This document shows, piece by piece, positions 5,239 through 52,587 of a stretch of DNA of 64,000 nt. The notes under the pieces were generated by a model. That model ran no database searches and was not told the origin of the DNA. It worked only from the letters and a program-made list of their open reading frames with translations. The stretch lies in sequence record PQ433349.1; one strand, written 5' to 3'. Each line of letters opens with the position of its first letter. Within the stretch, counting starts at the first letter, position 1. This DNA is from Escherichia phage vB_Ec-G1. The translations under genes and the position numbers were made by a program.

Positions 5239-5313
5239 GGCCCTGTAGCTCAATGGGAGAGCTGTCGGCTCATAACCGATAGGTAGCTGGATCGAAACCA
5301 GCCAGGGCCACCA
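5239..5313 (+). tRNA. tRNA-Met: tRNA with CAT anticodon (Met/fMet/Ile2 not distinguishable)
   Basis: acceptor GGCCCTG/CAGGGCC, D-stem GCTC/GAGC, anticodon loop CTCATAA, T-arm GCTGG-ATCGAAA-CCAGC, CCA encoded. Confidence 0.75.
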
Positions 5314-5315
5314 AC

Positions 5316-5390
5316 GTCTTTATGGTGTAATGGATAGCACAGGAGTCTTCTAAACTCTTAGTCAAGGTTCGATTCCTTGTAAAGACACCA
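5316..5390 (+). tRNA. tRNA-Arg: tRNA-Arg (anticodon TCT)
   Basis: acceptor GTCTTTA/TAAAGAC, anticodon loop CTTCTAA, T-arm CAAGG-TTCGATT-CCTTG, CCA encoded. Confidence 0.75.
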
Positions 5391-5585
5391 GAACATTTTA
5401 ACATGAATTAGCTCAAGTGATTTGAACCCACTACTGATCATGGTGGCAGAGAATGAGGCAAGTATGTCAGACATTATAAACAAAGGCCACGGTTATATTA
5501 GAAGACATAAATGCTCGAAGAGCACCGTTCGTGGAGAACGGGGGTTGGTGGAGTCACCATTCATGGTAAAATGTTTTAAAAAACT

Positions 5586-5614
5586 ATTGACAACAAACAT
5601 TATTTTATGTTAGA
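5586..5614 (+). promoter_or_regulatory. sigma70-like promoter
   Basis: TTGACA 5586-5591, 17-nt spacer, TTAGAT. Confidence 0.5.
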
Positions 5615-5622
5615 TTATAAAT

Positions 5623-5713
5623 ATGGAAGGGCAAATCGACGTGGCGACGAAAACGGTCTTGAAAACCGCCGAGCTTGAAAGAGCCTTGGGAGTTCGACTC
5701 TCCCTCCTTCCGC
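5623..5713 (+). tRNA. tRNA-Ser: tRNA-Ser (anticodon TGA), long variable arm
   Basis: acceptor GGAAGGG/TCCTTCC, anticodon loop CTTGAAA, variable hairpin GAGC-TTGAAA-GAGC, T-arm GGGAG-TTCGACT-CTCCC, CCA; D-region spacing slightly atypical. Confidence 0.6.
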
Positions 5714-5737
5714 CAGATTGGTAGATTGGTAGATTGG
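5714..5737 (+). repeat. perfect tandem repeat (GATTGGTA)x3 spanning 5' end of tRNA-Ser(GCT)
   Basis: GATTGGTAGATTGGTAGATTGGTG read directly; second copy supplies the tRNA acceptor strand. Confidence 0.8.
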
Positions 5738-5811
5738 TGAAATGGTAGCCACAACAGTTTGCTAAACTGTAGTCGGAAACGGCGTGTAGGTTCGAGTCCT
5801 ACATCTACCGC
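5726..5811 (+). tRNA. tRNA-Ser: tRNA-Ser (anticodon GCT), long variable arm
   Basis: acceptor GGTAGAT/ATCTACC, anticodon stem ACAGT/ACTGT with loop TTGCTAA, T-arm GTAGG-TTCGAGT-CCTAC, CCA. Confidence 0.7.
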
Positions 5812-5941
5812 CAAGTTCTTTTTAATATAGCTTACTTTAATAGAGTAAATTTTCGGCAGATGGCCCCCATCATCTTACCGATACCTCATAGTTAGTGGTG
5901 CGAACACTGGCTATTTTAAAAAGAATTTAAATATTAGTATT

Positions 5942-6029
5942 TAGGTGAGTTAATTCCGTAGGGGTAGCGGGGCAGACTGTAAATCTGTTATCATTGCGAT
6001 TCGGGTGGTTCGACTCCATCACTCACCAC
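5942..6029 (+). tRNA. tRNA-Tyr: tRNA-Tyr (anticodon GTA), long variable arm
   Basis: acceptor GGTGAGT/ACTCACC, anticodon arm GCAGA-CTGTAAA-TCTGT, T-arm GGTGG-TTCGACT-CCATC, CCA; anticodon arm matches E. coli tRNA-Tyr as recalled. Confidence 0.8.
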
Positions 6030-6035
6030 CAAATT

Positions 6036-6121
6036 AAGATGAGTTGGCTGAATGGTTTAAGCAGCGGACTGTTAATCCGTGTTCGAAAGAACAATATAGG
6101 TTCGAATCCTATACTCATCGC
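6036..6121 (+). tRNA. tRNA, probable anticodon GTT (Asn) but with atypical long variable arm
   Basis: perfect acceptor GATGAGT/ACTCATC, T-arm ATAGG-TTCGAAT-CCTAT, CCA; best anticodon arm GCGGA-CTGTTAA-TCCGT; 15-nt extra hairpin GTTC-GAAA-GAAC. Confidence 0.45.
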
Positions 6122-6128
6122 CAGAATT

Positions 6129-6205
6129 ATGGACTTGTAGAGTTAAGGTAAACCCCCAGTCGCCAATAGGCTTCTGGAATTGCAGGTATCGAATCCTGCC
6201 GAGTC
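6129..6205 (+). pseudogene. tRNA-like element, probably non-functional or non-canonical
   Basis: acceptor-like GGACTTG/CGAGTCC and T-arm-like GCAGG-TATCGAAT-CCTGC (8-nt loop) but no convincing anticodon arm and no CCA. Confidence 0.3.
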
Positions 6206-6211
6206 CCAGCA

Positions 6212-6286
6212 TTGCTCCTATAGTATAATGGCTATTACAACGGTTTTGTAATCCGTGGATCTCTGTTCGATTCAGTGTGGGAGCAC
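6212..6286 (+). tRNA. tRNA-Thr: tRNA-Thr (anticodon TGT)
   Basis: acceptor GCTCCTA/TGGGAGC, anticodon stem ACGG/CCGT with loop containing TTTGTAA, T-loop TTCGATT, CCA. Confidence 0.6.
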
Positions 6287-6561
6287 CAACACAACATTAA
6301 GAGCACTGTGATTGATCGTCGTATCCTGTGCACAAGGTCTGCTCGAAAGACAGTGTTCTTAGTATTGTGTTGATCACAAAAAGAGTCACCCGAAACTTGA
6401 CCGGAGTAGGGTTGGATGGGGCAAAATGAGAAGCGGCTCTCCCATCGACAGCAACGAAGAATAATATTTGACTTTGGTTTTGTATTATTTTAAGTTAGCT
6501 TACCGAACGTAGGGCTAGTCACCCAACGGGATACTCGTCACTGTCCCAATCAATAAAAGTC

Positions 6562-6591
6562 TTGACAACAAATAGTAAAATGTAGTATAGT
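6562..6591 (+). promoter_or_regulatory. sigma70-like promoter upstream of tRNA-Gly
   Basis: TTGACA 6562-6567, 18-nt spacer, TATAGT. Confidence 0.55.
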
Positions 6592-6602
6592 AAATATATA
6601 GG

Positions 6603-6676
6603 GCGTTCTTGGTGTAGCGGTAGCATTCCGTCCTTCCAAGTCGGCGGCACGAGTTCGATCCTCGTAGAACGCTCCA
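6603..6676 (+). tRNA. tRNA-Gly: tRNA-Gly (anticodon TCC)
   Basis: acceptor GCGTTCT/AGAACGC, anticodon loop CTTCCAA, T-arm ACGAG-TTCGATC-CTCGT, CCA. Confidence 0.7.
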
Positions 6677-6772
6677 AATTATTTAATAAAGGGTTGCCAG
6701 AAAACTTTCTCTTTTACTCATGGTTTTCTCCTTCTCTCACACTTCTTCTGGTTGCCCTTCATTAAATGATTT

Positions 6773-6850
6773 ATTGGTTTGTAGTGTAGTCCGGTAGCAC
6801 ACGACACTTTGACTGTCGTAGGTTTGGTTCAAATCCAGACAGACCAGCCA
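6773..6850 (+). tRNA. tRNA-Gln: tRNA-Gln (anticodon TTG)
   Basis: acceptor TGGTTTG/CAGACCA (U1-A72), anticodon arm CGACA-CTTTGAC-TGTCG, T-arm TTTGG-TTCAAAT-CCAGA, CCA. Confidence 0.7.
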
Positions 6851-6855
6851 TATAA

Positions 6856-6932
6856 CGGAGTTTAGCTCAGTTTGGTAGAGCATACGCTTTGGGAGCGTAG
6901 GGTCGCAGGTTCGAATCCTGCAATTCCGACCA
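6856..6932 (+). tRNA. tRNA-Pro: tRNA-Pro (anticodon TGG)
   Basis: acceptor CGGAGTT/AATTCCG, D-stem GCTC/GAGC, anticodon arm TACGC-TTTGGGA-GCGTA, T-arm GCAGG-TTCGAAT-CCTGC, CCA. Confidence 0.8.
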
Positions 6933-6938
6933 ATTAAA

Positions 6939-7012
6939 TGTTTCGTAGTTCAATGGTAGAACCCACGACTGATAATCGTGAGACACAAGTTCGATTCTTG
7001 TCGAAACAACCA
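6939..7012 (+). tRNA. tRNA-Ile: tRNA-Ile (anticodon GAT)
   Basis: acceptor TGTTTCG/CGAAACA, D-stem GTTC/GAAC, anticodon arm CACGA-CTGATAA-TCGTG, T-arm ACAAG-TTCGATT-CTTGT, CCA. Confidence 0.8.
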
Positions 7013-7014
7013 GT

Positions 7015-7084
7015 TTCCCGTTAGACTTACAGGATAAGAGTTCCACAGCTTATTGTGATGCTGGTTCGAATCCAGCACGGGATA
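7015..7084 (+). tRNA. tRNA-like gene, anticodon unresolved (possible pseudo-tRNA)
   Basis: T-arm GCTGG-TTCGAAT-CCAGC and acceptor TTCCCGT/ACGGGAT (1:72 mismatch) but only a 4-bp CACA/TGTG stem with 6-nt loop where the anticodon arm should be; no CCA. Confidence 0.35.
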
Positions 7085-7090
7085 CATAAT

Positions 7091-7169
7091 AGCGGGATAG
7101 AGGAGTCTGGTCGTCCTCGCCAGTTTCATATGCTGGAGATCATCGGTTCAAATCCGATTCCCGCCTCCA
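7091..7169 (+). tRNA. tRNA-Met: tRNA with CAT anticodon, second copy (1:72 mismatch, initiator-like feature)
   Basis: acceptor AGCGGGA/TCCCGCC, D-stem GAGG/CCTC, anticodon arm CCAGT-TTCATAT-GCTGG, T-arm ATCGG-TTCAAAT-CCGAT, CCA. Confidence 0.65.
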
Positions 7170-7984: not shown

Positions 7985-8051
7985 TAATGCCCCTTCTCTT
8001 CCTAAAATAAAATTTTACGAGGAAGTAGAAGATAATGAATCTAAAGACTAA
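7914..8051 (+). CDS. hypothetical small protein (alternative frame)
   Basis: ATGATG after GGAGGAAG; 45 codons; overlaps 7814-7984 in another frame so at most one is likely real. Confidence 0.3.
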   Translation: MMTEKTWEEILAEAQPMEVKKIVNNAPSLPKIKFYEEVEDNESKD

Positions 8052-8427
8052 AACTGTATTAGGTTTTGTTTTAATTGTTGTTCTTATTCTTGCCGGAATG
8101 TTTGCTTATAACAAGATACGTGAGTCTGGCTACAAAGATGGTGTTGCCTATCAAACGCAATTATATCAAGCAGCCCAAGCAAAAGCAAAACAGGATTTTG
8201 ATGTTCTTCAAAAAAGAGCCGATGAAGAAAGAGCATTATTAAATACCCAAATAAACAACTTGTCTAAAAACAATGCACAATTAAAAGCAGATTTAGAGAA
8301 GAAGAAACAAACGATCAATGAGGATACAACGAATTATGCAAAAACTAATTCTGGCAGTATGTCTTGCTTTGCCCCTAATGATGACGGGTTGTTCATCATC
8401 AACAAAAGTTTCCCCAGTTCTTATTGA
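8035..8427 (+). CDS. putative i-spanin (Rz-like inner-membrane spanin subunit)
   Basis: 130 aa; N-terminal TM segment VLGFVLIVVLILAGMFAY then coiled-coil-like segment; o-spanin-like lipoprotein gene overlaps its 3' end in another frame. Confidence 0.6.
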   Translation: MNLKTKTVLGFVLIVVLILAGMFAYNKIRESGYKDGVAYQTQLYQAAQAKAKQDFDVLQKRADEERALLNTQINNLSKNNAQLKADLEKKKQTINEDTTNYAKTNSGSMSCFAPNDDGLFIINKSFPSSY

Positions 8428-8662
8428 TGAGTGTAAGGCTGTAGCCATAGAAAAGGTTAAAGGTCCAGATTCAGACTTGATGGATAAAGTATCGACACCT
8501 GTGCCATACACTAAAAATAAAATTGCAAAAGGGGTCAGTAGATCTGAAGTTGTTAACAACCAAACTCAAAACAACGCTCTTTGGGAGCAAGATAGACGAA
8601 AGGTTTTAGGTTTACAAACATATATTAAAACACTGCAAGAAAAAGGTATTATTGCTGAATAA
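8336..8662 (+). CDS. putative o-spanin (Rz1-like outer-membrane lipoprotein)
   Basis: signal peptide with lipobox LMMTGC; overlaps i-spanin out of frame; alternative start at 8318. Confidence 0.6.
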   Translation: MQKLILAVCLALPLMMTGCSSSTKVSPVLIDECKAVAIEKVKGPDSDLMDKVSTPVPYTKNKIAKGVSRSEVVNNQTQNNALWEQDRRKVLGLQTYIKTLQEKGIIAE

Positions 8663-8671
8663 GGAGGAAAT

Positions 8672-10747
8672 GTGGCAAAGAAAAAGGCAGCAGGTAGTTT
8701 AGCTGGAGTAGATATTGAAGTAAAGGCTCAACCAGGTAAACAGACTCTTGCAATGGATTTAATGCCAGAAGTTATGATTTATGGTGGTGCCGCTGGATGT
8801 GTTTCTGCTGAAACGGAATATCTTACAAAAGATGGTTGGAGACAGATTAGTGAATATTCAGGAGAGGATATTTACCAATACAACCCTAAGAATAAGCGTT
8901 TAGAATTGGTAACACCTTATTTTGTAGAATACGATTTAAATGGAGATAACCTATACAGAATAACAAATGGTGTAGGGTTGTTCCAAGAACTTAGTATGGA
9001 ACACCGTTTTGTATTCTATAAGAAAAAGAAATCAAAGAAACATTTCGAGATTCTTGTAGGAGATCTTATTGCATTACAGCAAATAGGAAAACCCCTTCAA
9101 GGTTATGTAGAAAATCCATTCGGTAAACGTGTTCCTTTTAACATACCTGGTAAAAAGAGCACTTACTTAAAAATACACGAGGTTATTTCAACAGATGATA
9201 AGAAATATTGTTTTGAGACTCCAAGCAGTTATATTGTCTTTAGACGTGGCGATCACTGCTTCGTTACTGGGAATAGCGGCAAGTCTCGTCTGCTATTGCT
9301 GAAAGCTTTAAAATACGCCTACAAAGATCCTTTGTTTGGTGGAATACTTTTTCGTAAGAACACCACTGCTCACCGTAAACCAGGTGGTCTGTTTACAGAA
9401 GCAAAACGTTTGTATCTTCCTTTACAACCGCACGTAAAAGAAAGTACAATGGATATCATTTTTGAAGCCACTGGTGGCGGAACCCTCAAATTCGACCATT
9501 TGGAAAATGATAACGTAACAGCAGAAACAAACCATCAGGGTACACAGTATTCAATGGTAGGTTTTGACGAGTTAACCCACTTCACGCAATATGAAATGCT
9601 CTATCTTCTGGGACGTATGCGTTCAGAATCAGAAACAAGCTTCATGTTGTGCACATGTAACCCCGATGCAGATAGTTGGGTTTTGAATTGGGTGTTACCT
9701 TATCTTGATGAGGGTGGTTATCCTAGAGAAGATATGTGTGGTAAACAAAAATATTTCATCATTGTTAACGATGAACCTGTTTTTGCTGACACACCTGAAG
9801 AACTGAAAGAAAAATATCCAGAAAACTGTTTCATGGAAAACCCTAATACAGGGGAGACAGTTGTTATTGAACCACAAACTTTCGTATTTATTGGTGGGAC
9901 AATATTTGATAACCCAGAACTGATTAGGCTTAACCCTAATTACTTAGCACAGCTTAAATCACAAACAGCAATTAAAAGAGCACAGCTTCTGGATGGTTGT
10001 TGGTTTGCACGTATTCAGAAAGAATCTTTCTTTCAACGTGAATGGTTACATAAAATATCTTATAAAGATGTTCCTAACAATCTTAAACTAATGCGAGCCT
10101 GGGATAAAGCTGTTTCAGTTCCTACAGAAACTTATCGTTATCCAGACTATACAACGTCTGTCAAAATGGGTAAAGATCAAGATGGTAATATCTACATCTT
10201 TGGTGACTATGACTATGACGCTGTGGATGAGAAAAGTAAAATTTTCGGAAGGTTTAGAAGACTACCTGGGGAAAGGGATAATCTGATTCTTAATCAATGT
10301 AAGATTGATGGACCAGAAGTTACAGTAGTGCTTCCTAAAGACCCATCTGGTGCTGGGACAATAGAATATACAGAGTCTGCAAAGAAACTTATTCTAGAAG
10401 GTTTTGTTGTTAAACCAGATGCTATGCCAGGTAACAAGAAAAAGCTTCAGCGTTTTATGCCTTTTAGTAGCGCGTGTCAAAATGGTTTTGTTTATATTGT
10501 TGAAGATTCTTTCCCTAATGTGGAAACTCTAACCCACTTTTATAAAGAATTGGAATCTTTCAATGGTGAAAGATCTACAGCCACTATTAAAGATGACATT
10601 CCCGATGCTGCTGCTTCTTGTTTCAATACTCTGTCAAAAGAGAATACTTTCAAGGCAGTAGCTATCCCTGCAACAACAAATGCTCCTACAGGATACAGTA
10701 GAATGAACAGCGGATTTCACCAACCGTATAGTGTCCGTAAAAGATAA
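8672..10747 (+). CDS. terminase large subunit, intein-containing precursor
   Basis: 691 aa; GTG start after AAGGAGG; Walker A split as GGAAG/SGKS around an insert, Walker B MVGFDELTHF; C-terminal nuclease-like region. Confidence 0.85.
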   Translation: MAKKKAAGSLAGVDIEVKAQPGKQTLAMDLMPEVMIYGGAAGCVSAETEYLTKDGWRQISEYSGEDIYQYNPKNKRLELVTPYFVEYDLNGDNLYRITNGVGLFQELSMEHRFVFYKKKKSKKHFEILVGDLIALQQIGKPLQGYVENPFGKRVPFNIPGKKSTYLKIHEVISTDDKKYCFETPSSYIVFRRGDHCFVTGNSGKSRLLLLKALKYAYKDPLFGGILFRKNTTAHRKPGGLFTEAKRLYLPLQPHVKESTMDIIFEATGGGTLKFDHLENDNVTAETNHQGTQYSMVGFDELTHFTQYEMLYLLGRMRSESETSFMLCTCNPDADSWVLNWVLPYLDEGGYPREDMCGKQKYFIIVNDEPVFADTPEELKEKYPENCFMENPNTGETVVIEPQTFVFIGGTIFDNPELIRLNPNYLAQLKSQTAIKRAQLLDGCWFARIQKESFFQREWLHKISYKDVPNNLKLMRAWDKAVSVPTETYRYPDYTTSVKMGKDQDGNIYIFGDYDYDAVDEKSKIFGRFRRLPGERDNLILNQCKIDGPEVTVVLPKDPSGAGTIEYTESAKKLILEGFVVKPDAMPGNKKKLQRFMPFSSACQNGFVYIVEDSFPNVETLTHFYKELESFNGERSTATIKDDIPDAAASCFNTLSKENTFKAVAIPATTNAPTGYSRMNSGFHQPYSVRKR
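8798..9274 (+). mobile_element. mini-intein (159 aa) inserted in terminase Walker A P-loop
   Basis: insert begins Cys43 (CVSAETEYLTKDGW), has TxxH-like SMEH, ends ...FVTGN201 followed by Ser; excision restores GGAAGSGKS. Confidence 0.7.
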
Positions 10748-49254: not shown

Positions 49255-52200
49255 CTAGTGACAGGACGCCCAGGAGTTACCCACATCATATCCGGCAGTA
49301 AGCTGAACATTAAGATTGTAAAATTCTCCAGCCTTAGTAACAGCTAAAGCAGCAAGTTCACCTGCCCGACTATAGGCTGTAAACCATCCACCTTTGGGAG
49401 ATTCATGAATGTTAGCCCAAATTTGCCCTGTCTCTTTTTCCTTATTATGCTTCCATTCTTCAACTTTAGCAAGGCATTCTTTATCAATTTTCTTTTGTTC
49501 TTCAGGATCGTCTACTTTCTTCCAACCTAATGATTCAGGTGAAAACCATTTAAATTCTACAAGGTTACGAGAAACTTCAAGCTGGGCTTCATCGTGATAT
49601 GCAATCATTTGTTGCACGAAGTCTTTATTCTTCCAGTCATCTTTAAAGAAGTCAACACTTAGCCCTTCTTCTTCGATCATGTCGTCATAAATAACCATTG
49701 CACGTTTAGCACAGATAACCCCACCACTTTGGAACAGAGAGTTAAGAATCGCGTGAGCAGAACGAGTAGGAACCTTACGACCGTCAATACCCAAAACATA
49801 CTGTTTACCAGTCTTAACCCAGAAATCGTTTAAACGTTCTTTAAGACGCGCCAGTGGGAATGCAGCTTCCCAGAAAGCATCGAACACCAACTGACCTGTA
49901 AACTTATCGCTACCAATTGTTTTAGCAACCTTGTCGGCTTGTGCACCATAAGTAATACCATACTTAACAGATTTAGCAGGACTACGTTCAAATTTACGTC
50001 CAATAGTTTCAGTGATACGTTTTGCCATCATTGTGTGAACATCATTAGGTTTCTCTAACAACAGAGCGTTACAATATTCATGTGGCTCCGGCTCGTACCG
50101 CCAACAGTTTCCTGTGATGGTAATGCAGTCTTTCTGACGCATGACCCACGTACCAAGTTCTGTTTGTGGACACCAAACATCCTCTACACCCCACTCTTCA
50201 ATAGTCAAACTTTGAACAGGAATGTGAGAGCGGTTAGCCAATGTTACCACTTTTACTTTCTGCTCTTTTGTATTGAAAGCTACAGAGATATTGCCTCCAT
50301 GCACCAGGTACGAGGCAGTTAAAGCTGCTTCAAAAAGTTCACCTGGGTTCTGCGCCCAACGCCAAACAGGTTTTTGTTTATGTTCATGCCAGTAACCATC
50401 TGCAATCAAGAAACCTTCCAAGAAAGCTACACGCTCGGCATGAGACATATTAACTACACGCTCTACCCACGGAACATCCCATTTACCTTGTTGAACAGAA
50501 GTTAAACTATTTACCTGATCTTGTTCCATGTTAAATGGAGCATTACAAATAATATTATCTCCTGTGCAAAGCTCGGCAGTTGTTCTGACTTTAGGCACAT
50601 AAGTATTCCCTTTACTACGGGTATTAACATACCAACGGTGATCTGCTGTTGCACGGTAAGTGTGTGATTTCCCTTTAATCTCAAACGTCTTACTATTTTT
50701 ATAGAAGACCTTACCTTTTACTTTAGTCCATTCTTTCAGACCTGTTTCAGCATTGTACCCTAAAATCTCATCCCCTTCCTTCAGGTCGTGATATCCTACC
50801 CAACCTTTACGAGTCAAAGCTTGAGCATCCATCGGCACACAGTAGTGTGACTCAATCTTTGCTTCCAAAGAGTCGAAGTCATAACCGATCTGGAAGTATT
50901 TAGGAACTTCTACACCAAACAAGTTACGCATCTCCCATCCAAACAAAGATGTGACACGAGGAATATTAGCTACAGATCTATGTTTCATACGAGAGGTTGC
51001 AGCATCACATGTAGCGGCTGGGGTAGGAATACGCCCATCTGCCCTTACTGCGGCTAAGAAACCTTTATCGTATTCTTGATCTTCTTCATCTTCTTCCCAA
51101 TCAGCACCGCCACCTAAAATAGAGTTCCTACGATGCTTATACGTTAAGTATTCTACAATCTGTGTAGCATAGGGAAATTTCTCACCCAAAGCTTGCAAAT
51201 TGGGACAGATTTCTTTTTCCTGACCTTTGGTAAAACATGGGTTAGTCAATACTTTAAGACCGCGACCTTTACCTTTTGCTATACGCTCTTGAATCTTCCT
51301 TTCCAAGGTTTCCGGTGTGCACTCCAGATGATCACAACGGTCCTGACAAAAATTAGAAGATAAAGTTTGCTCAACGTAAGCTCGAATACCTTTCTGAAGT
51401 TCTTCCTCACTCTTTTTAATCTTGGTGCCAGATTTAAGAGTCAAATCTTTATCTTTATATTCTGATGGTACCCAACCTAATCCTACAAGCCAGTTTTTAA
51501 TATGGGTTGTATCGTTCAATGTTGCAGGGATGTTAGGATCACACAGAGGCTCATCTGCTGCAACTGGCAGTTTCCACTCTTTCCCCAACATAACTAACCA
51601 CCAATCGCCATCCCTCTCTTCCAAATGACCATCATGTTTCTTAGCAAAATTGATCATATGGTTAGTTGGTTCTAGGTTCTTTTTAATTTGCAATTTAGGC
51701 GGAATAAAAGCTTTAAGATAACCTTTTGTTGCTGGTTTAGGTGGCAAAATAGGCTCAACGAGTAAACGAAGACGCTCCATTTCTGCATCCAAAAAAGCAA
51801 GGTTCTCTTCTGCTTGTTTCATGTTAAAAGCAAACCCACGGTGTTCCTGGCGTGTAATAATGTCTGCTACACGTTGTTCAAGTTCAAATGGACCTTCCCA
51901 TTTATCATAATCACCCCATTCTTCCATAAGGTAATTATATACGCTCGTATTGGCTTTGTTGTCATAGATACAGTAATAAAGCATATCCGCAGCAAAAGTC
52001 TTAAATCGATCTTCTTCTGGAATCTCTTTACGGAAATCTATTTTTACATCACCACCTGCTTTTCGAGAAAGTGCTGCCAAGCTATGTCCTGATTTGCCCT
52101 CAATCTTTCGATCTGGGTTTAACACTTTACTCAAAATCAAGGAGTCAATAAGTTTTACCTTATTTTTGCCCCACGTATTATATTTAACACTGTAATCTAA

Positions 52201-52587
52201 TCCATAAAACAGTTTTGTAGCCAACCAGTCGTAGTTGATACCGTTGTGAGCCACAGCCATTTCAACCAGATATTCAGGCTTGTCTTTAAAATAACCTTCA
52301 TGATTAATAAAATCTGGGAAATCTTTTAGTTGAAAATGCGTGTAATCTTGCGCCACATACTCTTTAAGAACATATGTGTATTTACCATCTGACTCTTCAT
52401 AAGGACGCCCATCAAAGATGTATTTAGGGCCATCGTGGAAAGCTACTATTTCTCCTGTTTCATGGTTCTCTAAGACAATACAGTGCATTTGAAATGTGTC
52501 TTTGAGACGATAAGGACTAGCTAAATAATCAATAGTGTCATTATTCAACAATCCGTTTGCTTCAATATCCCATGTAAACTTACTCAC
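49255..52587 (-). CDS. family A DNA polymerase with 3'-5' exonuclease domain, intein-containing precursor
   Basis: 1110 aa; exo motif DIEANGL; motif A GYDFDSLEAKIESHY, motif B RSPAKSVKYGITYG, motif C YHDEAQLEV; GTG start after AAAGGAGG. Confidence 0.9.
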   Translation of the reverse strand: MSKFTWDIEANGLLNNDTIDYLASPYRLKDTFQMHCIVLENHETGEIVAFHDGPKYIFDGRPYEESDGKYTYVLKEYVAQDYTHFQLKDFPDFINHEGYFKDKPEYLVEMAVAHNGINYDWLATKLFYGLDYSVKYNTWGKNKVKLIDSLILSKVLNPDRKIEGKSGHSLAALSRKAGGDVKIDFRKEIPEEDRFKTFAADMLYYCIYDNKANTSVYNYLMEEWGDYDKWEGPFELEQRVADIITRQEHRGFAFNMKQAEENLAFLDAEMERLRLLVEPILPPKPATKGYLKAFIPPKLQIKKNLEPTNHMINFAKKHDGHLEERDGDWWLVMLGKEWKLPVAADEPLCDPNIPATLNDTTHIKNWLVGLGWVPSEYKDKDLTLKSGTKIKKSEEELQKGIRAYVEQTLSSNFCQDRCDHLECTPETLERKIQERIAKGKGRGLKVLTNPCFTKGQEKEICPNLQALGEKFPYATQIVEYLTYKHRRNSILGGGADWEEDEEDQEYDKGFLAAVRADGRIPTPAATCDAATSRMKHRSVANIPRVTSLFGWEMRNLFGVEVPKYFQIGYDFDSLEAKIESHYCVPMDAQALTRKGWVGYHDLKEGDEILGYNAETGLKEWTKVKGKVFYKNSKTFEIKGKSHTYRATADHRWYVNTRSKGNTYVPKVRTTAELCTGDNIICNAPFNMEQDQVNSLTSVQQGKWDVPWVERVVNMSHAERVAFLEGFLIADGYWHEHKQKPVWRWAQNPGELFEAALTASYLVHGGNISVAFNTKEQKVKVVTLANRSHIPVQSLTIEEWGVEDVWCPQTELGTWVMRQKDCITITGNCWRYEPEPHEYCNALLLEKPNDVHTMMAKRITETIGRKFERSPAKSVKYGITYGAQADKVAKTIGSDKFTGQLVFDAFWEAAFPLARLKERLNDFWVKTGKQYVLGIDGRKVPTRSAHAILNSLFQSGGVICAKRAMVIYDDMIEEEGLSVDFFKDDWKNKDFVQQMIAYHDEAQLEVSRNLVEFKWFSPESLGWKKVDDPEEQKKIDKECLAKVEEWKHNKEKETGQIWANIHESPKGGWFTAYSRAGELAALAVTKAGEFYNLNVQLTAGYDVGNSWASCH
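50107..50841 (-). mobile_element. intein (245 aa) with LAGLIDADG-type homing endonuclease motif in DNA polymerase
   Basis: insert starts Cys583 right after motif A, has TxxH-like TADH, LEGFLIADG, ends ...ITITGN827 followed by Cys828; separates motifs A and B. Confidence 0.75.

What the first reader, a model, noticed from the sequence alone, without database searches (positions are those of the whole stretch)
8798..9274. Mini-intein splitting the terminase large-subunit Walker A motif
The terminase ORF is about 160 aa longer than it needs to be, and its ATPase P-loop is interrupted: ...MIYGGAAG | C43-VSAETEYLTKDGW ... SMEH ... FRRGDHCFVTGN201 | S-GKSRLL. Removing residues 43-201 gives GGAAGSGKS, a canonical Walker A, with Walker B MVGFDELTHF downstream. 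The insert starts with Cys, ends with Asn and is followed by Ser, which is the splice-junction chemistry of an intein, and its N-terminal block resembles intein block A. At 159 aa it has no room for an endonuclease domain. Packaging would then depend on protein splicing.
Basis: partly seen in the sequence, partly recalled or inferred. Interest (0 to 1): 0.8.

Follow-up and report, generated by a model that had tools for sequence, protein, structure and literature searches.

The report
Mini-intein splitting phage terminase P-loop
The DNA-packaging motor gene of this E. coli phage is interrupted, exactly inside its ATP-binding loop, by a 159-residue self-splicing protein element (a mini-intein) that almost certainly has to cut itself out before the phage can package DNA. 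Inteins at this kind of site are known in other phages, but this one goes unannotated and has an unusual catalytic signature.

Summary
ORF 8672..10747 (+) encodes a 691-aa large terminase (TerL). Residues 43-201 (nt 8798-9274) start with Cys, end with Gly-Asn, are followed by Ser, and split the Walker A motif GAAG|SGKS. Intein-free relatives read straight through (IGGAAGSGKS, YGGAAGAGKT).

Pfam and NCBIfam do not detect the insert. A family profile matches the solved AceL NrdHF intein (E ~5e-12). An AlphaFold model (pLDDT 93.6) matches only HINT-fold structures.

The same element type occurs inside PhoH, RtcB, DnaB, RNR, RpoB and DNA polymerases, often with a LAGLIDADG endonuclease. Of 232 family members, 99% have Cys1, 98% have Cys at block F:4, all end in Asn (nearly all in Gly-Asn), and all with a C-extein have Ser, Cys or Thr at +1.

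The intein and the extein have diverged equally between phage genera (87.3% identity each), so the insert is under purifying selection.

Refinement: this is not a textbook class 1 intein. It carries class-3-like hallmarks (Cys F:4, Thr G:5, no penultimate His) alongside a conserved Cys1, so the initiating thiol is unresolved.

A second intein of the same family sits in the DNA polymerase gene (nt 50107-50841, minus strand).

Verdict: a real intein, and a new member of a known kind. Interest is moderate.

The parts
8661..8667 (+). Shine-Dalgarno AAGGAGG upstream of the GTG start of terL
   Evidence: Read directly from the sequence.
8672..10747 (+). terL precursor ORF, 691 aa (78.7 kDa), including the stop codon
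   Evidence: ORF list. Pfam Terminase_6N E = 5e-17 on aa 202-460. phrog_979 TerL E = 1.5e-216. 99.9% identical to Escherichia phage nepoznato TerL.
8672..8797 (+). N-extein, aa 1-42, ending in the first half of Walker A (G39-A-A-G42, nt 8786-8797)
   Evidence: Alignment to intein-free TerLs.
8798..9274 (+). Mini-intein, 159 aa (TerL aa 43-201; 18.6 kDa), HINT fold, no endonuclease domain
   Evidence: Family profile vs PDB 6zgq, E about 5e-12. AF2 model pLDDT 93.6. Foldseek top 50 hits are all HINT-fold proteins. phrog_32482 (PhoH with intein) matches the insert in two separated stretches.
8798..8839 (+). Block A (CVSAETEYLTKDGW). Cys43 is intein Cys1, codon 8798-8800
   Evidence: Cys1 in 230 of 232 family members. 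T6, E7, G13 and W14 are nearly invariant.
8978..9019 (+). Block B (LFQELSMEHRFVFY). Ser108 = B:7, His111 = B:10 (codon 9002-9004), Phe113 = B:12
   Evidence: His at B:10 in 231 of 232 members. B:7 is Ser or Thr. B:12 is V/M/I/L/F. Matches S65/H68/M70 of AceL NrdHF.
9200..9241 (+). Block F (KKYCFETPSSYIVF). Cys180 = F:4, codon 9209-9211
   Evidence: Cys at F:4 in 228 of 232 members. Equivalent to the branch-point Cys124 of AceL NrdHF.
9254..9274 (+). Block G (HCFVTGN). Thr199 = G:5, Gly200 = G:6 (no penultimate His), Asn201 = G:7
   Evidence: C-terminus is TGN in 168 and SGN in 41 of 232 members; Asn is universal. AceL NrdHF ends ...VTG(N).
9275..10744 (+). C-extein, aa 202-691. It starts with the +1 nucleophile Ser202 and the second half of Walker A (SGKS, 9275-9286). 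Walker B MVGFDE is at 9554-9571, and the nuclease domain lies downstream.
   Evidence: TIGR01630 and phrog_9453 match the C-terminal domain.
50107..50841 (-). Second intein of the same family, outside the given finding. It is 245 aa, inside the family A DNA polymerase ORF 49255..52587 (aa 583-827): ...ESHY|CVPMDAQALTRKGW...TADHRW...FLEGFLIADGY...VWCPQ...ITITGN|CWRY
   Evidence: Six-frame HMM scan, translation, sub-threshold Pfam Intein_splicing and LAGLIDADG_3 matches. The intein-free JG004 polymerase is 73.5% identical in one HSP across the junction, while phi92 and Phapecoctavirus give two pieces.

Best explanation
Nt 8798-9274 encode a splicing-competent mini-intein inserted in the Walker A P-loop of the large terminase (GAAG|SGKS).

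The gene is translated as a 78.7-kDa precursor whose ATP-binding loop is broken by a 159-residue HINT domain. The intein then excises itself and joins Gly42 to Ser202. This yields a 60.1-kDa TerL with an intact GAAGSGKS P-loop and a free 18.6-kDa intein. DNA packaging therefore depends on protein splicing.

The proposed chemistry runs in three steps. A thioester forms at the Gly42-Cys43 bond. [quoted passage not shown] Asn201 then cyclises and an O-N shift follows. His111 (B:10), Ser108 (B:7) and Thr199 (G:5) assist.

I think it somewhat more likely that Cys43 (intein Cys1) initiates in the class 1 manner, with Cys180 (F:4) assisting or relaying, than that Cys180 initiates alone.

The element has lost any homing endonuclease. 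It is a fixed, vertically inherited passenger of this phage lineage, and it descends from a large, endonuclease-bearing intein family that targets P-loops.

Shown here: the insert and its exact boundaries, the fold, family membership, conservation of the catalytic residues, and purifying selection. Inferred: that splicing occurs, and which thiol initiates it.
For: Boundaries and P-loop restoration.

HINT fold: family profile against 6zgq at E = 5.7e-13 and 4.8e-12; AF2 model with pLDDT 93.6; Foldseek top 50 hits are all inteins, BIL or Hedgehog domains.

Mobile-element signature: the same element type is embedded in TerL (PF03237 and PF04466), PhoH, RtcB, DnaB, RNR-beta, GTP cyclohydrolase I, RpoB, SNF2 and DNA polymerase. 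It always sits at a conserved motif and often carries LAGLIDADG_3. A 241-aa version sits at the identical site in Av-05 TerL, whereas KNP2 and A6-1 lack it.

Catalytic residues are conserved across 232 family members: Cys1 99%, His B:10 99.6%, Cys F:4 98%, C-terminal Asn 100% (Gly-Asn in all but one) and +1 Ser/Cys/Thr in all 231 that have a C-extein.

Purifying selection and co-inheritance: between the window and Justusliebigvirus EmilieFrey, the intein is 87.3% identical (55 synonymous vs 20 non-synonymous codon changes) and the C-extein is 87.3% identical (186 vs 62). About 133 phage records carry the insert, which matches the roughly 132-136 records holding a closely related TerL.

These are isolated, plaque-forming phages. 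An intact Walker A is required for TerL ATPase activity (established knowledge of terminases), so the insert must be removed or tolerated.

The closest solved relative, AceL NrdHF, also has Ser at B:7, lacks His at F:13 and G:6, and ends T-G-N|S. It splices efficiently in vitro (PMC7891396).
Against: No experimental evidence of splicing exists for this protein or any close relative, and none was found in the held literature.

Pfam and NCBIfam intein models do not match the insert. A single-sequence phmmer search against PDB found no intein.

The penultimate His (G:6) and His F:13, which assist Asn cyclisation in most inteins, are absent.

The AF2 model rests on an alignment of the same family. 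I could not inspect its coordinates for active-site geometry.
Confidence: 0.9

Rival explanations
1. It is a splicing intein, but it works by the class 3 route. Cys180 (block F:4) attacks the Gly42-Cys43 peptide bond directly and forms a block-F branched thioester. The N-extein then passes to Ser202, and Cys43 is dispensable for catalysis.
For: The closest solved and biochemically characterised relative, AceL NrdHF, is a proven class 3 intein. It has the same block pattern: Ser B:7, His B:10, a hydrophobic non-Trp residue at B:12, Cys F:4, Thr G:5, Gly G:6, Asn, and +1 Ser. Cys F:4 is 98% conserved and Thr or Ser at G:5 about 90% conserved in the family. +1 is Ser or Thr in 71% of members, as is typical of class 3. 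Class 3 inteins concentrate in phage and helicase-type P-loop ATPases, including terminases. Three of the 37 WCT-triplet inteins in Tori et al. retain an N-terminal Ser or Cys. The DNA polymerase intein in this same window has a complete W-C-T triplet plus Cys1.
Against: Cys1 is present in 230 of 232 family members. If it were catalytically idle it should vary, as position 1 does in classical class 3 inteins (Pro, Ala, Gly). Trp at B:12 is absent (Phe113). Cys at F:4 also occurs in class 1 inteins, where it is the second most common residue at that position (PMC4031507). Thr at G:5 occurs in the class 1 gp41-1 intein. Canonical class 3 structures (MchDnaB1, MsmDnaB1) rank well below class 1 inteins in the fold search.
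Confidence: 0.35
2. It is a decayed or non-splicing HINT-domain insertion. TerL either tolerates it as a permanent extra domain, or the element only cleaves (BIL-like) and leaves TerL as two associated chains.
For: No splicing data exist. The penultimate His is absent. No endonuclease remains, so the element is no longer mobile. phrog_979 models the insert as a collinear part of TerL.
Against: Every residue needed for splicing is retained and under purifying selection, at the same intensity as the essential extein. A 159-aa domain between Gly42 and Ser202 would separate the two halves of Walker A. The +1 nucleophile that BIL domains lack is present. Lack of the penultimate His is family-wide and compatible with fast splicing in AceL NrdHF.
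Confidence: 0.04
3. The insert is removed at the RNA level (an intron), or it is an assembly or annotation artefact, rather than an intein.
For: Related phages do carry introns or homing-endonuclease insertions in terL. One example is the HNH endonuclease gene splitting nepoznato terL. Another is the intron confirmed as spliced at the mRNA level in Pectobacterium phage CB7 terL.
Against: The insert is in frame with no stop codons. Its conservation is at the protein level (synonymous changes far outnumber non-synonymous ones). It folds as a HINT domain. No Rfam intron family matches. The same sequence is present in about 133 independently sequenced phage genomes.
Confidence: 0.01

Closest known systems
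AceL NrdHF intein (PDB 6zgq; naturally split class 3 intein from an Ace Lake metagenome; PMC7891396)
   Same: It is homologous over nearly the full length (profile E = 4.8e-12, residues 6-157 vs 12-154) and is the best structural match. It is of similar size (146 vs 159 aa). The key positions match: Ser at B:7, His at B:10, a hydrophobic non-Trp residue at B:12 (Met vs Phe), Cys at F:4, Thr-Gly-Asn at the C-terminus, no His at F:13 or G:6, and +1 Ser.
   Different: AceL NrdHF begins with Ala and is naturally split. It sits in an NrdH-NrdF protein and has been shown to use the class 3 pathway. The window intein is contiguous, begins with a family-invariant Cys, sits in a TerL P-loop, and is biochemically untested.
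Mycobacteriophage TerL inteins (Kelley et al. 2016, PMC5050341) and the phiCbK TerL intein (PMC3556154)
   Same: These are inteins interrupting the ATPase domain of the phage large terminase, most commonly in the Walker A P-loop. Both class 1 and class 3 types occur, and a non-His penultimate residue (including Gly) is common in phage inteins.
   Different: The insertion point differs. TerL1-a lies between the invariant Lys and Thr, with TerL1-b one residue away. In phiCbK the site is K|S. Here the site is three residues upstream of the Lys (GAAG|SGKS). In mycobacteriophages the Terminase_6-type TerL carries inteins only at the C-motif (site f), not the P-loop. The hosts are Actinobacteria and Caulobacter rather than E. 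coli, and those inteins are detected by standard InterPro and Pfam models, whereas this one is not.
Classical class 3 (WCT-triplet) inteins, e.g. MP-Be DnaB, Msm and Mch DnaB-1 (PMC2807308, PMC7664689)
   Same: Cys at F:4, Thr at G:5 and +1 Ser/Thr. They share a preference for phage and helicase-type P-loop ATPases, and a phage origin has been proposed for them.
   Different: Those inteins lack an N-terminal nucleophile and have Trp at B:12. The TerL intein has Cys1 and Phe at B:12, and it is structurally no closer to them than to class 1 inteins.
Intein-free TerL of Vequintavirinae and Felixounavirus phages (A6-1, KNP2, C600M2/wV8)
   Same: The extein is homologous (34-40% identity) with the same Walker A, Walker B and nuclease layout. 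The predicted spliced product reproduces their P-loop exactly (GGAAGSGKS).
   Different: They have no insert and are 500-534 aa long, against the 691-aa precursor here.

Membership tests
Intein (HINT-fold protein-splicing element) | HINT (Hedgehog/intein) fold of the inserted segment | tested here: met
   AF2 model pLDDT 93.6, pTM 0.85. Foldseek against PDB: the top 50 hits are all inteins, BIL or Hedgehog domains, best 6zgq at E = 1e-6, TM 0.67-0.69. Profile against PDB sequences: 6zgq at E about 5e-12, with weaker hits to other inteins.
Intein (HINT-fold protein-splicing element) | In-frame insertion in a conserved site of a host protein whose intein-free homologues are contiguous there | tested here: met
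   GGAAG|SGKS here, against GGAAGSGKS in A6-1 and KNP2 and GGAAGAGKT in C600M2. Single HSP across the junction.
Intein (HINT-fold protein-splicing element) | Splice-junction residues: N-terminal Cys/Ser (or a class 2/3 substitute), block B Thr/Ser-x-x-His, C-terminal Asn, and +1 Cys/Ser/Thr | tested here: met
   Cys43, Ser108-x-x-His111, Asn201 and Ser202. All are conserved in 232 relatives.
Intein (HINT-fold protein-splicing element) | Penultimate His (G:6), a common but not obligatory feature | tested here: not met
   Gly200. Gly at G:6 is family-wide and is also found in AceL NrdHF, which splices. It is variable in phage inteins. It is therefore not disqualifying.
Intein (HINT-fold protein-splicing element) | Sporadic, mobile distribution across unrelated host proteins, with or without a homing endonuclease | tested here: met
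   Family members occur in TerL, PhoH, RtcB, DnaB, RNR-beta, GTP cyclohydrolase I, RpoB, SNF2 and DNA polymerase. Lengths run 139-376 aa, many with LAGLIDADG_3. Av-05 carries one while KNP2 does not.
Intein (HINT-fold protein-splicing element) | Autocatalytic excision with ligation of the exteins | not testable with these tools
   Needs expression with western blot or MS. None is reported in the held literature.
Class 1 intein | N-terminal Cys/Ser that forms the linear (thio)ester and is required for splicing | tested here: inconclusive
   Cys1 is present and 99% conserved. Whether it is required is not testable in silico.
Class 3 intein | Cys at block F:4 (branch-point nucleophile) | tested here: met
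   Cys180, conserved in 228 of 232 members. It aligns with Cys124 of AceL NrdHF.
Class 3 intein | Thr at block G:5 | tested here: met
   Thr199. The family has T in 168 and S in 41 of 232 members.
Class 3 intein | Trp at block B:12 | tested here: not met
   Phe113. The family has V/M/I/L/F here. AceL NrdHF has Met and is still class 3.
Class 3 intein | No requirement for an N-terminal nucleophile (usually absent) | tested here: inconclusive
   Cys1 is present and nearly invariant, which argues for a function. Its dispensability can only be tested by a C43A mutation.
Large terminase, Terminase_6-type (PF03237) | Pfam Terminase_6N above the gathering score; Walker A and Walker B ATPase motifs; C-terminal nuclease domain | tested here: met
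   PF03237 at 62.7 bits against a cutoff of 22. Walker A is restored only after in-silico splicing. Walker B MVGFDE is at aa 295-300. phrog_979 E = 1.5e-216, and phrog_9453 and TIGR01630 match the C-terminal part.

The most novel reading that the evidence does not exclude
[quoted passage not shown] Both Cys1 and Cys F:4 are almost invariant. Splicing could therefore proceed through a relay of two thioesters (Cys1 linear, then Cys F:4 branched, then +1 Ser/Thr). Alternatively, the two cysteines could form a redox switch that gates terminase maturation. Under this reading AceL NrdHF would be a derivative that lost Cys1. That would mean class 3 chemistry can arise from within a class 1-type lineage, contrary to the proposals of a single or convergent origin. 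Because the host is E. coli and the extein is essential for packaging, the question could be tested genetically in the native context.
Probability: 0.15. Interest if true: 0.65.

Novelty: new member of a known kind. Interest (0 to 1): 0.42.

Why it matters
1. It corrects the annotation of an essential gene in about 130 sequenced E. coli, Klebsiella and Citrobacter myophages (Stephanstirmvirinae: Phapecoctavirus, Justusliebigvirus/phi92-like), several of which are candidates for phage therapy. Their TerL is listed as a plain 691-aa protein or as 'hypothetical protein'.

2. A 2024 paper states that no inteins have been reported in E. coli or coliphages (PMC11162368). This window holds two, in TerL and in the DNA polymerase.

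3. The intein is invisible to Pfam and NCBIfam yet belongs to a very large family: 5,073 clusters at 50% identity with E up to 1e-10. Standard pipelines therefore under-count inteins.

4. A compact 159-aa intein that must function in the E. coli cytoplasm, and whose relative AceL NrdHF splices within minutes, is a candidate protein-engineering tool.

5. [quoted passage not shown]

Tried and rejected
**Searches that found nothing**
- Pfam-A and NCBIfam scans of the insert, at E-values up to 10, gave no family.
- A single-sequence phmmer search of the insert against PDB gave only noise: a portal protein, IMPase and a WW domain.
- The first homologous-protein run, with the insert alone, returned only 5 near-identical fragments. 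I had to assemble a diverse seed alignment by hand from tblastn hits in phage genomes before profile searches worked.
- The Rfam gathering-threshold scan of the whole window found no intron or other RNA family in terL, only 11 tRNAs at 5239-7166.

**Sources that did not help**
- Tori & Perler 2011, on class 3 inteins with an N-terminal nucleophile, is not held in the library. What I say about that paper rests on how other papers cite it.
- I checked whether the BASEL phage record (EmilieFrey) annotates the intein. It does not.
- Literature searches for intein together with phAPEC8, Phapecoctavirus, phi92 or coliphage found no report of this element.

**Readings I considered and rejected**
- Ordinary domain insertion.
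- RNA intron.
- Assembly artefact.
- BIL-type cleavage-only domain.

The rival explanations section gives the reasons for each.

**What I could not do**
- I could not inspect the atomic coordinates of the AF2 model, so the distances between Cys1, Cys F:4 and His B:10 were not measured.
Full report
**1. The observation.** The window is part of a ~150-kb Escherichia myophage of the Stephanstirmvirinae. Its TerL is 99.9% identical to that of Phapecoctavirus nepoznato. ORF 8672..10747 (+) starts with GTG, 4 nt downstream of AAGGAGG, and encodes 691 aa. Residue 43 is Cys (TGT, 8798-8800). Residues 199-201 are Thr-Gly-Asn (ending at 9274), and residue 202 is Ser. Pfam Terminase_6N matches only from residue 202, beginning at profile position 8. 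Deleting residues 43-201 gives ...MIYGGAAG-SGKSRLLLL..., so GAAGSGKS fits the Walker A pattern GxxxxGK[ST]. Walker B (MVGFDE) follows at aa 295-300. Every statement of fact in the finding is correct, including the sizes: 78.7 kDa precursor, 60.1 kDa product and 18.6 kDa insert.

**2. Intein-free homologues.** A tblastn search with the in-silico spliced protein shows Felixounavirus TerLs aligning in a single HSP from residue 17 across the junction. Read directly, the P-loops are ILVIGGAAGSGKSFLL in phage A6-1, ILIIGGAAGSGKSYLL in KNP2 (Vequintavirinae) and LVLYGGAAGAGKTAAL in C600M2. The predicted ligated sequence GGAAGSGKS is therefore exactly what uninterrupted relatives have. These relatives are 500-534 aa long.

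**3. What the insert is.**
- Standard profile libraries do not recognise it. Pfam and NCBIfam give no hit even at E = 10, and phmmer against PDB gives noise.
- PHROGs gave the first clue. The TerL family phrog_979 models the insert collinearly. A PhoH-like family (phrog_32482) also matches the insert, in two separated stretches: the N part at profile positions 54-166 and the C part at 370-405. That is the pattern expected if the same element, with a larger middle, sits in another P-loop ATPase.
- A tblastn search of the insert against phage genomes found weak two-piece matches inside RtcB, DNA polymerase, primase/helicase, RNR and other TerLs.
- Reading those loci showed the same architecture each time: C-[VL]-D-x-D-T-E-[YV]-L-T-x-x-G-W ... 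[ST]-x-x-H ... K-Y-C-F ... T-G-N, followed by Ser or Cys.
- Each is inserted at a catalytic motif. Examples are GVDIG|CGM in Corynebacterium phage Lederberg RtcB, DIH|S in Acinetobacter phage ME3 DNA polymerase, and the identical GGAAG|SGKS site in Av-05 TerL (241 aa) and in Vibrio phage TerLs (146 aa).

**4. Fold and family.**
- A profile of eight such sequences hits the crystal-structure sequence of the AceL NrdHF intein (6zgq) at E = 5.7e-13. Weaker hits go to the RecA, PolII and DnaX mini-inteins and a BIL domain.
- A deeper profile of 22 mini-inteins aligns with 6zgq over residues 6-157 (E = 4.8e-12), including the C-terminal ...VTG(N).
- AlphaFold2 with that alignment gives a confident all-beta model (pLDDT 93.6, pTM 0.85). 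Its 50 best Foldseek matches in the PDB are all HINT-fold proteins. AceL NrdHF comes first, followed by Prp8, CDC21, DnaB and DnaE inteins, BIL domains and Hedgehog. There is no room for, and no sign of, an endonuclease domain.
- A word-indexed profile search recovered the element in proteins carrying Terminase_6N, Terminase_3, PhoH, RtcB, DnaB_C, RNR small subunit, GTP cyclohydrolase I, RpoB and SNF2 domains, often with LAGLIDADG_3.
- An exhaustive HMMER scan of 1.84 billion cluster representatives found 13,485 proteins at E up to 1e-3 and 5,073 at E up to 1e-10.
- In 232 complete inteins from 189 proteins, the conserved positions are:
  - position 1: Cys in 230
  - B:10: His in 231
  - B:7: Ser or Thr
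  - B:12: V/M/I/L/F
  - F:4: Cys in 228
  - C-terminus: TGN in 168 and SGN in 41, with Asn universal
  - +1: Ser in 135, Cys in 66, Thr in 30
- Median length is 313 aa, and 43 of the 232 are mini-inteins. 42% are inserted at G|[SCT][GSA]K[STD] P-loops.
- The nearest neighbours of the window intein are other 158-160-aa inteins at YGGAAG|SGKSRL in TerL (51-84% identity over the splicing blocks). Next come 300-330-aa inteins in other P-loop NTPases at 42-46%.
- The TerL mini-intein is thus a site-specific, endonuclease-less offshoot of a large P-loop-targeting family.

**5. Selection and inheritance.**
- Between the window and Justusliebigvirus EmilieFrey, the intein is 87.3% identical at the protein level (55 synonymous vs 20 non-synonymous codon differences). 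The C-extein is also 87.3% identical (186 vs 62). The insert is therefore under purifying selection as strong as that on the essential ATPase, and it has co-diverged with it.
- About 133 phage records carry the insert at 60% identity or better. This matches the roughly 132-136 records with a closely related TerL, so it appears fixed in the subfamily.
- Distribution is patchy at greater distance. A clade of Vibrio phages whose exteins are ~53-55% identical has a much more diverged 146-aa version (25-29% identity). Av-05 has a 241-aa version, while its relatives KNP2 and A6-1 have none.
- The insert is slightly more AT-rich (34.2% GC) than the rest of terL (38.6%).

**6. How it most likely works.**
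- Shown: a HINT-fold element with all splice-junction residues sits exactly between Gly42 and Ser202 of an otherwise canonical Walker A.
- Inferred: the precursor cannot bind ATP productively until the intein excises. Splicing joins Gly42 to Ser202 and releases an 18.6-kDa intein, so packaging depends on splicing.
- The closest characterised relative, AceL NrdHF, is a proven class 3 intein. Its Cys124 at F:4 attacks the N-terminal junction. It has an 'MCT' rather than a WCT triplet, Ser at B:7, no His at F:13 or G:6, and ends T-G-N|S (PMC7891396). All of these features are shared by the window intein (F113/C180/T199, S108, G200, N201|S202).
- AceL NrdHF begins with Ala, however, whereas Cys1 is 99% conserved in the family. 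That argues that Cys1 is used.
- Cys is also the second most common residue at F:4 in inteins generally (PMC4031507). Thr at G:5 occurs in the class 1 gp41-1 intein.
- I therefore give about 0.55 to class 1-type initiation at Cys43, with Cys180 assisting or relaying. I give about 0.35 to class 3-type initiation at Cys180. The remainder goes to other outcomes.

**7. Comparison with what is known.** Inteins in phage TerL, and specifically in its P-loop, are well documented.
- In mycobacteriophages the insertion sites are TerL1-a between Lys and Thr, and TerL1-b one residue away. Both class 1 and class 3 types occur, and the penultimate residue is frequently not His (PMC5050341).
- In phiCbK the site is K|S and the intein starts with Pro1 (PMC3556154).
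- What differs here:
  - the exact site, three residues upstream of the Lys
  - the TerL family (Terminase_6-type, which in mycobacteriophages carries inteins only at the C-motif)
  - the host (E. coli)
  - the failure of standard profiles to detect it
  - the hybrid catalytic signature
- I found no report of this intein. GenBank records call the gene 'terminase large subunit', 'hypothetical protein' or 'large terminase with endonuclease'. A 2024 paper states that no inteins have been reported in E. coli or coliphages. The held library is incomplete, so this is absence of evidence only.

**8. Verdict.** It is a new member of a known kind, not a new kind. Interest is moderate. A specialist would not be surprised by a TerL P-loop intein. 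The coliphage host, the invisibility to standard models, the size of the family and the Cys1 / Cys F:4 / Thr G:5 combination give it some value as an experimental system.

**9. Seen in passing.**
- The window contains a second intein of the same family in the family A DNA polymerase (nt 50107-50841, minus strand; 245 aa). It has Cys1, a complete W-C-T triplet, a LAGLIDADG-like motif and +1 Cys. It was verified against the intein-free JG004 polymerase.
- In nepoznato the otherwise identical terL is additionally split by an HNH homing-endonuclease gene that the window lacks.
- Eleven tRNA genes lie at 5239-7166.

Noticed in passing
window 50107-50841 (minus strand), inside ORF 49255..52587: A second intein of the same family interrupts the family A DNA polymerase (aa 583-827, 245 aa)...SLEAKIESHY|CVPMDAQALTRKGW...TADHRW...FLEGFLIADGY...VWCPQ...ITITGN|CWRY. 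It has Cys1, a complete class 3 W-C-T triplet and +1 Cys, with a LAGLIDADG-like motif in the middle. Pfam gives only sub-threshold Intein_splicing (E = 0.009) and LAGLIDADG_3 (E = 0.13) matches. The intein-free Pseudomonas phage JG004 polymerase (73.5% identity) aligns in one HSP across the junction, while phi92 and Phapecoctavirus show a 735-nt gap.
   Followed up: partly
L006 (Acinetobacter phage ME3 DNA polymerase), compared with window 49255..52587: The homologous polymerase of phage ME3 has no insert at the window's HY|C site. It carries a 234-aa member of the same intein family about 30 residues downstream, at DIH|S. Two different insertion sites are therefore used in one polymerase family.
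   Followed up: no
L012 (Escherichia phage nepoznato, MN850571.1 3553-6597), corresponding to window terL at about nt 9900: In nepoznato the 99.9%-identical terL is annotated as two CDSs separated by about 1 kb holding an HNH homing endonuclease gene (probably an intron or free-standing HEG insertion). The window lacks this insertion. terL in this phage group is thus a hotspot for several selfish elements.
   Followed up: partly
window 5239-7166 (+): A cluster of 11 tRNA genes lies just upstream of the spanin/terminase region (Rfam RF00005, 39-72 bits).
   Followed up: no
window 8035-8662 (+): Two overlapping small ORFs lie immediately upstream of terL (8035..8427, 130 aa, with an N-terminal hydrophobic segment; 8318..8662, 114 aa, with a lipobox-like LMMTGC). 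They correspond in position to the i-spanin and o-spanin annotated in phage EmilieFrey.
   Followed up: no
L009 (Escherichia phage Av-05 terL, KM190144.1): The annotated Av-05 TerL CDS ends prematurely (...FIGFDEGRTVCSL*) soon after Walker B. This may be a frameshift, an intron or a further insertion downstream of its 241-aa P-loop intein.
   Followed up: no
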